From a virus (lineage: Duplodnaviria > Heunggongvirae > Uroviricota > Caudoviricetes), in the IMG/VR virus record IMGVR_UViG_2619619126_000002, positions 1 through 5,369 of that record: a stretch of 5,369 bases of DNA, one strand, 5' to 3'. This document shows positions 3,001 to 5,369 of the stretch, piece by piece (position 1 is the first letter of the stretch; every line of letters begins with the position of its first letter). Position numbers: made by a program.

Positions 3001-5369
3001 AATGGTGATTGCATATATCCTCCAAATATTGCGTGTTATGCATGTTATTTCACGCAAGTATTTTGCGCAAGTTGATTTGCTTATCACGCAATAAAGAAAT
3101 GTAATAAACGCATGAACATAGGAAACCGAGTCAGACAACTTCGCCAAGCGAAGAACATGAAAATCGCCGATCTCGCTGAAGCAATAGGAGTAGATGCGGC
3201 GAACATCTCGCGCTTAGAAACGGGTAAGCAGAAACAATTTACCGAACAAACACTGAGTAATATTGCCAAGAGCTTAGGTGTTGATATTGCTGATCTCTTT
3301 ACCTCTGCCCTCAAAAGTAATACTGTATATAAAAACAGTAATAATGAGGATGTTGCGCAGGTGAAGGATGTGTTCCGTATTGAAATGCTGGATATCAGTG
3401 CCAGTGCGGGAAATGGCCTTATCCAGGGCGGTGATGTCATTGATGTGATTCATGCCATCGAATACAGAACTGATAATGCTGTATCAATGTTCGGCGGACG
3501 ACCAGCCAATCACATCAAAGTTATCAACGTTCGTGGGGACAGTATGTGTCCAACCATTGAGCCAGGAGATCTCATCTTCGTCGATGTCAGCATCAATCAG
3601 TTTGATGGTGATGGTATATATGTCTTTGGTTTTGATGACAAAATATACGTTAAAAGACTTCAAATGATTCCTGACAAACTGCTGGTGATTTCTGATAACC
3701 AGATTTACCGTGAATGGGGAATTACTAGCGAAAACGAACACCGATTCATGGTCTTTGGAAAGGTCTTAATCAGTCAGTCGCAAACCCTTAAGAGACATAA
3801 TTAACCTCAATATCCCATCCATCGGCCACCGAAAGGTGGCTTTTTATCACCTATAATTTTGCATATCTCGCAAAATACTACTTGCATATCTCGCAATTTA
3901 ATTTTAACTTTTGTTCCAGACCAACTACAGGATTACAACAAAATCGGGTTGCAACACGGTGCATGGTGCATGTGTCGTAAGCGGTCAGTAAATGTCAAAA
4001 ACGAACAGGCAGGACGCCCACGAAGTAGCCGCCTCGGGCATATGAAGTCCAGGATGATTCGTTAGCAACAAAAAAGCGCCCTACAGGACGCTTAGCTCTT
4101 TAACAATCTGGTCCCCATCAACAAGTAACTGATAACTTGAGGAGGTGTGAAATGCACAAAACAGAACCAAAAATCGTCGCGCCTGGCTACACAGATGAGG
4201 AAATTTATGAGTGGATGACAAAGAAGCTGGCAGCTATAAACCAGCTTCGTGAAGTGCTGTCTTATCGACAGGAAACAATAGACTCCTTAAAAAAACTGGA
4301 TCAGGAAATCACGGTTTTATCACAGGATGTTACTTTAGATATTGTGCAGACAAATTAGGATCCCATTCATTTTCGTCAAAATCATCAAAGTGATGAATTT
4401 GTGATCTCCAGTCTCGATAATCTAAAAATTTCTGGGCGGTTACACTTATTTTATCAAGCGTGAGTTCATCCTGAATTGAAAGAAGAAGTTCATCAAATTT
4501 CATCTCATTAATCTGTTTTGGCATCCAGTGATGCTTCATCAGAATAAGGTGAACCAGAGCCTTTTTCCCATTCAACTGATTATAGGGTGTGCCGAATTTC
4601 TTCCGGTGCTCATTTAAGACAAGGTCCAGAAGAGTAAGTAATGTTGCCCTTGATTCAACTTTGCTTATTTCGACTGATGACACTACCCCACTGATTTCAA
4701 TGCCCCGATACTTTCCAACATTTTCACAGTGGGATTTGTACAGCGTATAGATATTACCGGACATTTCTTTTCCTTTTGCGTTGTTGGGGATAACCAGATT
4801 AACCGAATCCTTGTTGTTGGGGAATAACCAGGTCCACCTCGCCTGATGTGGCTAAAAGCAGGCACATAACAGCTAAGTATTTTCAACCAGAGAGAATCCT
4901 TAGCGTTGTGGTGAATGCGGCTCAGCGCACGCGGGTTAAGGTTGAGGCTGACAGTCGACCTTCTGTGGATACCCACCCGCCTGGTGTGCAACCTTCGCCA
5001 GGCACCGGGAGGCACCCGGCACCACAACTTTATGCTGTGTGTAGTCCTGGCGGTACCAGCTTGTACCCTTGCTTCCGGCTGGTACCGTCCTTTTTACAAA
5101 ACAGAGAAGAGCATCACCGGACGACGGGCTCATAACCCAATCCATCCGGGCGGCAGTCACCGCAGGTGTTCTTCTCTGTTTTGTGGAGAAACTAACCGAC
5201 CTTGCAGGGTCGATATGATGAGGAGCAGCAAAATGGCTAGCGAACGCAGTACTGATGTGCAGGCATTTATCGGGGAGCTGGACGGCGGCGTATTTGAAAC
5301 CAAAATCGGCGCAGTTCTCAGTGAAGTCGCTTCCGGTGTGATGAACACGAAAACCAAAGGTAAGGTCTC

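What the first reader, a model, noticed from the sequence alone, without database searches (positions are those of the whole stretch)
4860..5232. GC-rich, highly structured non-coding stretch between the accessory island and the next gene
About 370 bp with no credible ORF (track ORFs here are Arg/Pro-rich and mutually overlapping on both strands). It holds several nested inverted repeats: GCCTGG/CCAGGC at 4979-5003, CCGGG/CCCGG at 5005-5019, a 10-12 bp hairpin with T-run at 5049-5095, and a 15-21 bp long-range inverted repeat at 5095-5185. This fits a tL-type terminator plus a structured leader or small RNA controlling the downstream gene, by analogy with lambda tL1 and retroregulatory sites.
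Basis: seen in the sequence. Interest (0 to 1): 0.5.

Follow-up and report, generated by a model that had tools for sequence, protein, structure and literature searches.

The report
Prophage small-RNA gene plus tRNA-like leader hairpin
The GC-rich gap is real non-coding RNA: a divergent copy of a known prophage small-RNA family (STnc100/PasD) ending in its own terminator, followed by a conserved long hairpin whose tip copies the anticodon arm of the initiator tRNA.

Summary
Window 4860-5232 has no conserved ORF and folds much better than shuffled sequence on the + strand.

It holds two separate conserved RNA modules in the early-left operon of an SfV/e14/ST64B-like prophage.

Module 1 (4872-5095):
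- It is a divergent member of Rfam STnc100 (RF02076; 42.4 bits against a cut-off of 47, E 6.5e-7).
- It has a 5' hairpin and a five-helix core with a covarying pseudoknot.
- A conserved single-stranded stretch, UGCUGUGUGUAGUC, follows, then a DicF-like intrinsic terminator.
- Relatives of this core sit 32-41 nt upstream of dicB, kilR and P1 tciA.

Module 2 (5091-5189):
- It is a 20-25 bp covarying helix that starts in the terminator's U-tract.
- It is capped by a junction carrying GACGGGCUCAUAACCCAAUCCA, which shares 14 contiguous nt with the E. coli tRNA-fMet anticodon arm.
- It has no Rfam match.

Inferred mechanism: an Hfq-type sRNA that also attenuates transcription, followed by an RNase III-type processing helix and leader for the yfdP-like gene.

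The lambda tL1 and retroregulation analogy is not supported.

E. coli K-12 'ymfH' (e14) is a decayed copy of this region.

The parts
4872..4904 (+). P0: 5' hairpin directly abutting the core.
   Evidence: Inverted repeat I3 has 13-nt arms, 85% complementary, and appears in the MFE fold. ST64B has a hairpin of different sequence at the same place: GAUAAGAG...CUCUUAUC.
4905..5028 (+). STnc100-type structured core. P1 is 4905-4913 with 5020-5028, followed by the junction AAU. P2 is 4917-4921 with 4927-4932, with A4929 bulged. The P3 region is variable. P4 is 4979-4986 with 4996-5003. P5 is 5005-5009 with 5015-5019, loop AGGCA.
   Evidence: Rfam STnc100 covers the full model at 42.4 bits, E 6.5e-7. 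A covariance model built here scores it 93 bits, E 8e-21, and the same model also finds canonical STnc100 copies. On 76 distinct relatives 94% of cells are paired, against 37-46% when partners are slid, and 22 of 27 pairs show compensatory change. RNAalifold agrees.
4938..4944 (+). Pseudoknot 5' strand AAGGUUG. It pairs with CAACCUU (4989-4995) in the loop of P4.
   Evidence: The strand after P2 and the sequence's own P4 loop pair at -6 kcal/mol or better in 51 of 58 representatives. The rate is 31% for partners taken from other sequences and 24% for shuffled loops. More than 15 different sequence versions keep the pairing.
5029..5048 (+). Single-stranded spacer. UGCUGUGUGUAGUC (5033-5046) is the candidate seed, and UUUAU (5029-5033) is a possible RNase E site.
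   Evidence: The spacer is unpaired in the MFE fold. It is conserved in phiES15 and ST64B although their terminators differ. It is absent, replaced by AGCCAC, in some otherwise identical loci.
5049..5095 (+). Intrinsic-terminator-type hairpin: 13 bp (5049-5061 with 5077-5089), a 15-nt loop, then C + U5. It has a DicF-like layout.
   Evidence: (I4). It aligns with Qin DicF at UUGGCGGUAYCAG...CCGYCCUUUUU. The Rfam DicF score is not significant here (15.9 bits, E 0.38); the e14 copy scores 28.5 bits, E 1e-3. The simple terminator scan missed it because the loop exceeds 8 nt.
5091..5189 (+). Element 2. A long helix (5096-5115 with 5165-5184, extended by 5091-5095 with 5185-5189) closes a three-way junction. 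Arm A is 5117-5149 and arm B is 5150-5163.
   Evidence: MFE z -5.8. 198 copies (84 unique) in the loci fetched. On 10 divergent copies 95.3% of cells are paired against 37-48% when slid, 8 pairs show compensatory change, and 0 of 500 shuffles reach this. G-U pairs place the structure on the + strand RNA. No Rfam match.
5123..5144 (+). Invariant 22-mer GACGGGCUCAUAACCCAAUCCA. 5126-5138 is GGG-CUCAUAA-CCC, an initiator-tRNA anticodon-arm look-alike, with CAU at 5131-5133.
   Evidence: It shares 14 contiguous nt with E. coli tRNA-fMet (CGGGCTCATAACCC). The tRNA sequence was verified as 100% identical in all 5426 genomes, median 4 places per genome. CUCAU and the three G-C pairs persist in variants whose loops read CUCAUUA or CUCAUUC.
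5197..5212 (+). Hairpin 3: 6 bp with a UGCA loop, just upstream of the ribosome-binding site.
   Evidence: MFE fold. Relatives carry a hairpin of different sequence at the same place, for example GGCGGUGGCAGCCGCC.
5220..5369 (+). SD GAGGAG (5220-5225) and the start (ATG 5233) of the yfdP-like first early-left gene. The gene runs off the window.
   Evidence: ORF reading. The homologues are SfV orf32, ST64B sb37 and YfdP.

Best explanation
The stretch belongs to the leftward early transcription unit of an SfV/e14/ST64B-like lambdoid prophage. The order is cI 3112-3804, accessory genes, this region, then a yfdP-like gene. It encodes two stacked RNA modules on the + strand.

Module 1 (4872-5095) is a divergent member of the STnc100/PasD prophage sRNA family.
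- It has a 5' hairpin and a five-helix pseudoknotted core.
- About 20 nt of single-stranded RNA follow, including the conserved UGCUGUGUGUAGUC.
- It ends in a DicF-like intrinsic terminator.

Inferred function of module 1:
- Transcripts ending at about 5095 form a roughly 225-nt Hfq-type base-pairing sRNA.
- It may be trimmed in the AU-rich spacer to a DicF-sized RNA of about 65 nt that uses the spacer as its seed.
- The terminator also attenuates transcription into the early-left genes.

Module 2 (5091-5189) exists only in read-through transcripts. Its 20-25 bp helix begins in the terminator's U-tract.

Inferred function of module 2, by analogy with the dicBF operon:
- It is an RNase III-type processing site.
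- It separates the sRNA from the yfdP-like mRNA.
- It releases or presents the apical Y-shaped RNA that carries the initiator-tRNA anticodon-arm mimic.
- Hairpin 3 and the SD follow.

Shown here: non-coding status, homology, both structures with covariation, strand, and genomic context.

Inferred: Hfq dependence, seed use, termination efficiency, RNase III and RNase E processing, and any role of the anticodon-arm mimic.
For: Identity of module 1:
- The Rfam match covers the full STnc100 model at E 6.5e-7.
- The 22-nt block CACCGGGAGGCACCCGGCACCA is identical to canonical STnc100 copies, which score 56-161 bits.
- A model built only from window-type sequences retrieves canonical copies full-length at E 1e-7 to 1e-14.

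Structure of module 1: supported.

Family biology:
- PasD1 and PasD2 were validated by Northern blot, have Hfq-dependent stability and have RIL-seq targets (PMC8550237).
- PasD and STnc100 are judged homologous (bioRxiv 10.64898/2026.05.13.724894).

Spacer: it is conserved across different terminators.

DicF analogy:
- The layout is the same and the stem is similar.
- The e14 copy gives a DicF hit at E 1e-3.

RNase III precedent:
- DicF has a terminated 53-nt form and an RNase III-made 72-nt form (PMC5069750).
- By my own counting, the position 19 nt past the terminated 3' end falls inside the 21-bp closing helix of the STnc100-like core in the dicB leader.

Element 2:
- Covariation supports its fold.
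- In all 44 unique copies from the early-left context it starts at a terminator U-tract.
- It precedes different first genes, yfdP-like or a gene starting MNNPFFKNML (rdgC-like by my reading of the sequence, not tested).

Read-through is needed:
- No promoter-like site was found on the + strand between 4546 and the gene.
- In phiES15 only about 30 nt separate the terminator from the kil start codon.
- In K-12 the e14 copy is listed as part of an intE-xisE-ymfH operon and an SOS-type regulon.
Against: - The Rfam score is below the curated cut-off (42.4 against 47).
- No sigma-70 promoter for the sRNA was found, so it may exist only as a processed piece of the pL transcript.
- Most window-type cores lie directly upstream of coding genes without a terminator. 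The core therefore has a role that does not need an sRNA 3' end.
- The candidate seed is missing in some loci that carry the same core, and no target was identified.
- The terminator loop is 15 nt, unusually long.
- No expression, Hfq or RNase data exist for this exact locus. The ST64B ncRNA STnc1310 may be the orthologue, but its coordinates were not checked.
Confidence: 0.6

Rival explanations
1. The core (4905-5028) is mainly a cis-acting leader domain. It could be a protein-, RNAP- or ligand-binding fold, or an RNase III/P processing signal, that controls or processes the downstream early genes. On this view the 'sRNA' is only its terminated by-product.
For: - Window-type cores lie 32-41 nt upstream of the start codons of dicB, kilR, P1-like tciA and other genes, with no terminator.
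- The fold is far more conserved than the seed-plus-terminator part.
- In phiES15 the kil gene can only be reached through the terminator that follows the core.
- The dicB-leader copy has a 21-bp P1 helix that coincides with the reported RNase III cut.
- Three different cores, all closed by the same P1 helix, occupy this position in otherwise identical loci.
Against: - No conserved alternative pairing links the core to its terminator. Terminators change with no correlated change in the core.
- Canonical family members are experimentally Hfq-dependent trans-interacting sRNAs.
- No ligand or partner is known.
- The window's P1 is only 9 bp.
Confidence: 0.25
2. The modules are decaying relics, a degenerate tRNA and an sRNA carried along by mosaic recombination, with no present function in this prophage.
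For: - The K-12 e14 copy is visibly decayed: a 1-nt deletion in P5 and a changed anticodon-like loop.
- The anticodon-arm similarity could reflect descent from a tRNA gene.
- Related elements sit next to tRNA arrays.
- Mosaic joints fall at 5048 and at P1.
Against: - Compensatory changes keep both folds intact across E. coli, Shigella, Salmonella, Cronobacter, Citrobacter and Klebsiella phages.
- The window copy retains every conserved feature.
- 2781 of 5426 complete E. coli genomes carry a match to the region.
Confidence: 0.08
3. The region encodes a small protein: the 95-aa ORF 4848-5135, annotated 'hypothetical protein' in RefSeq and 'YmfH' in K-12.
For: An open frame exists in the window and in SfV. 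RefSeq annotates a CDS there.
Against: - The frame shifts in e14 and is interrupted by stops in ST64B, phiES15, RCS47 and Qin homologues.
- There is no family match.
- Length variation in P3 is not in multiples of three.
- The substitutions follow RNA pairing rules instead.
Confidence: 0.02
4. The inverted repeats act at the DNA level, as a recombination, attachment or replication site or as a protein-binding palindrome.
For: The arms are long and nearly perfect, and the region lies at mosaic joints.
Against: - Helices tolerate G-U pairs, which would be C-A on the other strand. Examples are pair 26/103, U-G in 9 of 10 copies of element 2, and many in P1 and P4.
- The fold is stronger on the + strand.
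- The U-run follows the hairpin on the + strand only.
- The pseudoknot has no DNA counterpart.
Confidence: 0.02

Closest known systems
STnc100 (Rfam RF02076) and PasD1/PasD2 prophage sRNAs of Salmonella and pathogenic E. coli
   Same: - The overall layout matches: closing helix P1, GAAU junction, bulged 5-bp P2 with a UNNGC loop, a hairpin P4 whose loop forms a pseudoknot, and an invariant P5 with the P1 3' strand (CACCGGGAGGCACCCGGCACCA).
- A spacer and an intrinsic terminator follow.
- The Rfam alignment is full-length, and cross-detection works with a model built here.
   Different: - The score is below the gathering cut-off.
- Three of the five P2 pairs are flipped C-G to G-C.
- It lies in the early-left operon next to the immunity region. 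Canonical copies lie after Q, tRNA arrays or stx and before nanS-p or holin genes.
- An extra 5' hairpin is present.
- Many close relatives are 5' leaders without a terminator.
DicF sRNA (RF00039) and the dicBF operon of the Qin prophage
   Same: - The position in an N-less lambdoid early-left operon is the same.
- A P1-closed structured RNA lies upstream.
- A single-stranded 5' part of about 15-20 nt is followed by a GGCGGUAYCAG...CCGCCCUUUUU-type terminator.
- A long helix follows immediately downstream; in dicBF this is where RNase III cuts.
   Different: - The seed sequence and the hairpin loop differ.
- The Rfam DicF score is not significant for the window.
- Complementarity to ftsZ was not established.
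- In Qin the downstream helix is the P1 of an STnc100-like core. Here it is element 2.
Initiator tRNA (tRNA-fMet) anticodon arm; tRNA mimics such as the thrS operator
   Same: - 14 contiguous nt are identical, including the loop CUCAUAA, the anticodon CAU and the three G-C pairs typical of initiator tRNAs.
- In Klebsiella phages the same motif sits in a Y-shaped RNA right after tRNA-Asn and tRNA-Arg genes.
- There it ends in a 6-bp stem followed by A/G-CCA.
   Different: - It is not a tRNA. There is no D arm or T loop, and neither ARAGORN nor the Rfam tRNA model detects it.
- In the window the acceptor-like stem is replaced by a 25-bp helix with no CCA.
RNase III processing hairpins of phage early transcripts (lambda N leader and sib, T7 R sites). 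This comparison rests on general knowledge.
   Same: A nearly perfect RNA helix of 20 bp or more lies between cistrons of an early phage transcript.
   Different: Cleavage was not tested. The helix carries a conserved A-C mismatch and a structured conserved cap. It lies upstream of the genes, unlike sib.
HK022 put antiterminator RNAs
   Same: Both are cis-encoded structured RNAs in the early operons of lambdoid phages that lack N.
   Different: put is a V-shaped RNA of about 70 nt with two stem-loops, sited just after the promoter (PMC9378689). There is no structural or sequence resemblance. The promoter-proximal leader in the window is not structured (z +1.1).

Membership tests
Rfam RF02076 STnc100 / PasD | Score at or above the curated gathering threshold (47 bits) | tested here: not met
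   42.4 bits, E 6.5e-7, full model 1-206. Window-type relatives in ST64B, phiES15, RCS47 and L016 also fail the cut-off, whereas canonical copies score 56-161 bits.
Rfam RF02076 STnc100 / PasD | Closing helix P1, the GAAU junction and the invariant P5 / P1-3' block CACCGGGAGGCACCCGGCACCA | tested here: met
   P1 is 4905-4913 with 5020-5028, and the block is 5003-5024, identical to canonical copies. P1 and P5 covary.
Rfam RF02076 STnc100 / PasD | P2 hairpin (canonical sequence CCCCCUNNGCGGNGGGG) | tested here: inconclusive
   The sequence differs (GCGGCUCAGCGCACGC) and Rfam marks non-canonical pairs. In the model-based alignment the same bulged 5-bp hairpin is kept through three C-G to G-C flips. 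That alignment is fitted to the structure.
Rfam RF02076 STnc100 / PasD | P4 hairpin next to P5, with its loop pairing to the strand after P2 (pseudoknot; my observation, not in the Rfam consensus line) | tested here: met
   In the window AAGGUUG 4938-4944 pairs with CAACCUU 4989-4995. 51 of 58 representatives keep the pairing, against 31% for cross-partners and 24% for shuffled loops.
Rfam RF02076 STnc100 / PasD | Spacer followed by a Rho-independent terminator | tested here: met
   13-bp stem 5049-5089 followed by U5. It aligns to model positions 150-206.
Rfam RF02076 STnc100 / PasD | Late-region context (after Q, tRNAs or stx; before nanS-p or holin genes) | tested here: not met
   The window copy lies between the cI-type repressor and the yfdP-like early-left gene. 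The canonical context is shown.
Rfam RF02076 STnc100 / PasD | Expressed, Hfq-dependent sRNA with trans targets | not testable with these tools
   Shown for PasD1/2 only (PMC8550237).
Rfam RF00039 DicF | Score at or above the gathering threshold (48 bits) | tested here: not met
   15.9 bits, E 0.38 in a 231-nt search. The e14 orthologue scores 28.5 bits, E 1e-3. True DicF scores 75 bits.
Rfam RF00039 DicF | Operon position and layout: structured RNA, single-stranded 5' part, GGCGGUAYCAG stem with U-run, then a long helix and the first early gene | tested here: met
Rfam RF00039 DicF | Complementarity to the ftsZ ribosome-binding site | not tested
   Only an informal by-eye comparison was made, and the loop sequence differs from DicF.
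tRNA (initiator type) | Cloverleaf detectable by tRNA finders | tested here: not met
   ARAGORN finds nothing in the window or in the homologues, even with relaxed or mitochondrial settings. The Rfam tRNA model gives no hit there.
tRNA (initiator type) | Anticodon arm with a CAU anticodon and three consecutive G-C pairs | tested here: met
   5126-5138 reads GGG-CUCAUAA-CCC. 14 contiguous nt are identical to verified E. coli tRNA-fMet. The feature is retained in variants.
tRNA (initiator type) | Acceptor stem ending in NCCA | tested here: not met
   The window has a 25-bp helix and no CCA. The Klebsiella-phage versions do end in a 6-bp stem followed by A/G-CCA.
RNase III processing site | About 20 bp or more of nearly perfect double-stranded RNA | tested here: met
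   20 covariation-supported pairs plus 5 U-tract pairs.
RNase III processing site | Cleavage by RNase III | not testable with these tools
   The only support is the analogy with the 72-nt DicF species and the 21-bp helix in the dicB leader.
Riboswitch / transcription attenuator | Conserved mutually exclusive pairing between the sensor domain and the terminator | tested here: not met
   Terminators of relatives differ freely, while the core does not change in step.
HK022 put RNA | About 70 nt, two stem-loops, directly downstream of pL or pR | tested here: not met
   The architecture and position differ. The pL-proximal leader 3900-4140 is unstructured.

The most novel reading that the evidence does not exclude
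The STnc100-type pseudoknotted core, two further undescribed cores that replace it between the same P1 arms, and the hairpin carrying the initiator-tRNA anticodon arm may form one set of interchangeable tRNA-like RNA cassettes in lambdoid and P1-like phages.

- They sit either beside tRNA arrays in late operons or in front of toxic early genes (dicB, kilR, kil, tciA).
- On this reading they act in cis or after RNase III/P processing, rather than as ordinary seed-pairing sRNAs.
- The anticodon-arm mimic in particular would bind or decoy a factor that reads tRNA-fMet. Candidates are MetRS, the 30S P site with IF3, or a VapC-type nuclease that cleaves tRNA-fMet.
Probability: 0.15. Interest if true: 0.8.

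Novelty: new variant of a known kind. Interest (0 to 1): 0.55.

Why it matters
1. Annotation. About half of complete E. coli genomes carry this region, and RefSeq calls it a hypothetical protein. In K-12 it is 'ymfH', which is most likely an RNA locus and not a protein gene.

2. Scope of the STnc100/PasD family. The family appears larger than Rfam captures. It has a conserved pseudoknot, and a subfamily forms the 5' leader of the cell-division inhibitors dicB and kilR. The 'sRNA' core may therefore have a cis or processing role. This can be tested directly in K-12.

3. A second, undescribed motif. The element that copies the initiator-tRNA anticodon arm is conserved, covaries and is absent from Rfam. 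It offers a concrete handle on possible tRNA mimicry by temperate phages.

4. Early-gene expression without N. The terminator-then-helix design suggests how N-less lambdoid prophages couple sRNA production to early-gene expression.

Tried and rejected
- Protein-coding reading: rejected. The frame is not conserved and there is no family match.
- tRNA or tmRNA gene: rejected.
- Riboswitch-like switch between P2 and the terminator: considered because many canonical terminators (GCCCCUC...GAGGGGC) resemble P2. Rejected because variants with other P2 or terminator sequences show no correlated change.
- HK022 put-type antiterminator: the architecture differs, and the conserved pL-proximal leader 3900-4140 is not structured. 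The HK022 record itself was too poorly annotated to be useful.
- C4 or isrK immunity RNAs: no hit in the window, although ST64B has both elsewhere.
- Own sigma-70 promoter for the sRNA: none found. The conserved block 4831-4870 fits a minus-strand promoter for the accessory gene better.
- Target of the candidate seed inside the window: none with up to 3 mismatches.
- DicF membership: not significant for the window.
- Tool-based pair counting for the pseudoknot: abandoned. The two strands sit in three different registers in both the MAFFT and the model-based alignments. A matched-versus-mismatched partner test was used instead.
- One mis-specified collection scan missed the window type, but it usefully returned variants with CUCAUUC loops.
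- Literature searches for ymfH, STnc1310, a dicB/kilR leader and an initiator-tRNA mimic found no description of these structures.
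Full report
**Context**

The window is the immunity region of a lambdoid prophage of the SfV/e14/ST64B/CPS-53 type.
- cro and the rightward genes lie on the minus strand.
- A LexA-like cI lies at 3112-3804 (+), followed by its terminator at 3824-3841.
- A small + ORF and a 144-aa minus-strand accessory ORF (4330-4764) come next.
- The flagged stretch follows, and a yfdP-like gene starts at 5233.
- SfV, SfII, SfIV and several E. coli phages carry the same 373 bp at 97-99.7% identity. ST64B carries it at about 78%.
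- In all of them the region lies between cI and the yfdP/yfdQ/yfdR-like early-left genes.

**Observation**

- The region is GC-richer than its left neighbour.
- On the + strand it folds far better than shuffled sequence: z -4.26 for 4870-5098 and z -5.82 for 5090-5240. The minus strand gives z -3.3.
- The 95-aa ORF is not conserved. A 1-nt deletion shifts its frame in K-12 e14, and homologues in ST64B, phiES15, RCS47 and Qin have in-frame stops.
- No NCBIfam model matches any local ORF.

**Module 1 (4872-5095): identity**

A permissive Rfam scan gives a single hit, STnc100 (RF02076), at 4875-5098 on the + strand. It scores 42.4 bits against a gathering score of 47, E 6.5e-7, and covers the whole model.

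The 22-mer CACCGGGAGGCACCCGGCACCA occurs in more than 120 viral contigs. Extracting the flanks showed one fold in two subfamilies.
- Type A has P2 = CCCCCUNNGCGGNGGGG. It is the canonical STnc100, scoring 56-161 bits in Rfam. It has its own terminator and lies 170-450 nt upstream of nanS-p esterase or holin genes, often directly after tRNA arrays.
- Type B has P2 = GCGGCUNAGCGCACGC. This is the window type and it stays below the Rfam cut-off.

A covariance model built only from type B sequences scores the window at 93 bits. It also retrieves type A copies full-length at E 1e-7 to 1e-14. The two types are therefore one structural family.

**Module 1: structure**

On 76 distinct sequences aligned to that model:
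- 94% of cells form pairs, against 37-46% when partners are slid.
- 22 of 27 pairs show compensatory change.
- No shuffle of 500 reaches the observed values.
- The alignment is fitted to the model, so these numbers lean towards the structure. RNAalifold on a plain MAFFT alignment independently finds P1, P2 and P5 with compensatory pairs.
- P2 is the same bulged 5-bp hairpin in both subfamilies, with three C-G to G-C flips.

The loop of P4 pairs with the strand that follows P2, forming a pseudoknot.
- Window: AAGGUUG with CAACCUU.
- phiES15: AAGGCUG with CAGCCUU.
- P1-like phages: GGUUAU with AUAACC.
- dicB/kilR type: CAGUUAA with UUAACUG.
- L186: CAGUCAA with UUGACUG.
- Canonical copies: AUCAGC with GCUGAU, or CCAGUC with GACUGG.

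Own partners pair at -6 kcal/mol or better in 51 of 58 representatives. The rate is 31% for partners from other sequences and 24% for shuffled loops.

**What is known about the family**

- PasD1 and PasD2 of EPEC were found by RIL-seq, confirmed by Northern blot and have Hfq-dependent stability (PMC8550237).
- Zhu, Shabalina and Storz conclude that PasD and STnc100 share an origin, and place them near Q, lpxR, esterase and lysis genes.
- One study detected STnc100 in outer-membrane vesicles of STEC.
- None of the papers read describes the pseudoknot or the early-left subfamily.

**Context of type B**

Most type B copies lie 32-41 nt upstream of a start codon and have no terminator. The genes are:
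- dicB (MKTLLPNV... / METLLPNV...);
- a kilR-like gene (MIAHHFGTDEIP...; identified from the sequence, not by annotation);
- tciA of P1-like phages;
- a 283-aa protein of unknown function.

The dicB-leader version occurs in 4645 of 5426 complete E. coli genomes, and no RNA is annotated there. In a Qin-type operon the order is: a structured RNA, DicF, an STnc100-like core, then dicB.

In that leader the core is closed by a 21-bp helix. DicF is reported to exist in two forms: a terminated 53-nt form and a 72-nt form made by RNase III from read-through mRNA (PMC5069750). By my counting, 19 nt beyond the terminated end falls inside that helix. This is indirect experimental support that the fold forms in vivo.

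The window, SfV, ST64B and phiES15 copies differ from the leader type. The core is followed by a spacer and a terminator.

**Spacer and terminator (5029-5095)**

- UGCUGUGUGUAGUC (5033-5046) is conserved in phiES15 and, with one or two changes, in ST64B, although their terminators are unrelated. This is what one expects of a seed.
- However, some loci with the same core have AGCCAC instead, and I found no target in the window.
- The terminator stem resembles that of DicF: UUGGCGGUAYCAG...CCGYCCUUUUU.
- The Rfam DicF score is not significant for the window. It is marginal for the e14 copy (28.5 bits, E 1e-3).

**Interchangeable cores**

I examined 80 loci with an identical yfdP-like protein, the same type of terminator and the same downstream hairpin.
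- Only 30 have the STnc100-type core.
- 17 have a second core (v2) and 24 have a third (v3).
- All are closed by the same GUUGUGGU(G) / (C)ACCACAAC helix.
- v3 is the RNA found upstream of DicF in Qin.
- v2 is weakly recognised by my model in the P1-like phage RCS47, right after its tRNA-Thr gene.
- Neither v2 nor v3 has an Rfam match.

**Module 2 (5091-5189)**

The 25-nt inverted repeat closes a three-way junction. BLAST and a motif scan recovered 198 copies (84 unique) in the loci fetched.

On ten divergent copies:
- 95.3% of cells pair, against 37-48% when slid.
- Eight pairs show compensatory change.
- No shuffle of 500 matches the observed values.
- G-U pairs place the structure on the + strand RNA.

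In the early-left context the element always starts in the U-tract of an upstream terminator (44 unique copies). It ends with GGAGAAA, a short hairpin of variable sequence and an SD. It precedes either a yfdP-like gene or a gene starting MNNPFFKNML (rdgC-like by my reading of the sequence, not tested).

The invariant tip is GACGGGCUCAUAACCCAAUCCA.
- It contains CGGGCUCAUAACCC, which is identical to the anticodon arm of E. coli tRNA-fMet. I confirmed the tRNA sequence by a search that returned 100% identity in all 5426 genomes, annotated tRNA-Met, with a median of four places per genome.
- Variants keep CUCAU and the three G-C pairs but change positions 37-38: CUCAUUA and CUCAUUC.

In Klebsiella phages the motif lies directly after tRNA-Asn and tRNA-Arg genes, downstream of Q. 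There it sits in a Y-shaped RNA closed by GGCCUG / CAGGCC and followed by A/G-CCA.

No tRNA finder or Rfam model recognises any of these copies.

**How it most likely works**

Shown: two conserved + strand RNA structures, and an sRNA-type 3' end between them.

Inferred for module 1:
- Transcripts entering from the left mostly stop at 5095. They probably start at pL, since no promoter-like site was found on the + strand between 4546 and the gene.
- This yields an STnc100/PasD-type Hfq sRNA. It may be cut in the AU-rich spacer to a DicF-sized RNA.

Inferred for module 2:
- When polymerase reads through, the long helix forms over the U-tract and is cut by RNase III, as in dicBF.
- The cut separates the sRNA from the mRNA and sets the mRNA 5' end just upstream of hairpin 3 and the SD.

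Why read-through must occur:
- The genes downstream include xis and int in SfV and e14.
- In phiES15 only about 30 nt separate the terminator from the kil start codon.
- In K-12 the e14 copy is listed as part of an intE-xisE-ymfH operon and an SOS-type regulon.

The roles of the pseudoknotted core and of the anticodon-arm mimic remain open. The main rival is that the core is chiefly a cis-acting processing or regulatory domain. I give that 0.25.

**Comparison and novelty**

The first module is a divergent subfamily of a known family, in an undescribed context and with an undescribed pseudoknot. The second module is, as far as Rfam and the literature searches show, undescribed. I therefore rate the finding as a new variant of a known kind.

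Its interest lies less in this particular copy than in what the comparison reveals:
- K-12 'ymfH' is a probable mis-annotation.
- dicB and kilR have a structured leader.
- There is a tRNA-fMet anticodon-arm look-alike whose function can be tested.

Noticed in passing
L409 2543-2854 (E. coli K-12-type e14 prophage); corresponds to window 4866-5222: The annotated protein gene ymfH is a decayed copy (90.8% identity) of this RNA region. It has a 1-nt deletion in P5 and a changed anticodon-like loop. A ymfH clone was reported as a trigger of the retron-Sen2 toxin RcaT (bioRxiv 10.1101/2020.06.22.160242); that effect could be carried by RNA.
   Followed up: partly
L228 1490-1640 (Qin-type dicB operon): An STnc100-like core closed by a 21-bp helix lies between DicF and dicB. 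The reported RNase III cut that makes the 72-nt DicF falls inside this helix. This leader version is present in 4645 of 5426 complete E. coli genomes and is not annotated as RNA.
   Followed up: partly
L248 1170-1307 (v2); L241 1190-1307 and L228 1290-1420 (v3); L004 1811-1949 (v2 in P1-like phage RCS47): Two further structured RNAs replace the STnc100-type core between the same P1 arms (GUUGUGGU / ACCACAAC) in otherwise identical loci. v3 also lies upstream of DicF. In v2 the P2 loop (GCUGAU) is complementary to the P5-like loop (AUCAGC). Neither has an Rfam match.
   Followed up: partly
L310 1503-1585 (Klebsiella phage RCIP0034); also L321, L340, L364, L386: A Y-shaped RNA with the same initiator-anticodon-arm motif follows tRNA-Asn and tRNA-Arg downstream of Q. 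It ends in a 6-bp stem followed by A/G-CCA, so it may be a D-armless tRNA-like gene that tRNA finders miss.
   Followed up: partly
window 4780-4870: The tandem repeat GTTGTTGGGGA(A)TAACCAG occurs twice (4780-4804 and 4813-4838). A block at 4831-4870 is conserved in phiES15 and, in diverged form, in SfV, upstream of unrelated minus-strand accessory genes. Read on the minus strand it looks like a promoter (TTAGCC-N16-TATACT in phiES15).
   Followed up: partly
window 4853-4867 and 5255-5269: A 15-nt, 80% complementary long-range inverted repeat links the block upstream of the sRNA with codons 8-12 of the yfdP-like gene. It may be chance.
   Followed up: no
window 3990-4065: The pL-proximal leader is conserved with SfV (L001 about 3385-3460). 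Its fold is no better than shuffled sequence (z +1.1), and its function is unknown.
   Followed up: partly
L003 409-496 (-) and 521-597 (-) (ST64B): C4 antisense RNA (79.7 bits) and isrK (64.3 bits) lie next to the antirepressor-type gene sb41. The window has no counterpart above E = 1.
   Followed up: no
L021 2795-3798; L008 8044-8560: Canonical STnc100 copies sit directly after arrays of three tRNA genes and can be tandem (two copies 468 nt apart). Some contigs carry up to five family members (L061).
   Followed up: no
ST64B prophage (literature: PMC7067206): An ncRNA named STnc1310 is induced by peroxide and nitric-oxide shock, together with genes downstream of the ST64B cI repressor. It may be the ST64B orthologue of module 1, but its coordinates were not checked.
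   Followed up: no
window 1608-2207 (minus strand): The replication-protein-like ORF (MSTKLTGYVWDG...) is short, and neighbouring ORFs overlap in other frames. The prophage may carry a frameshifted or truncated replication gene.
   Followed up: no
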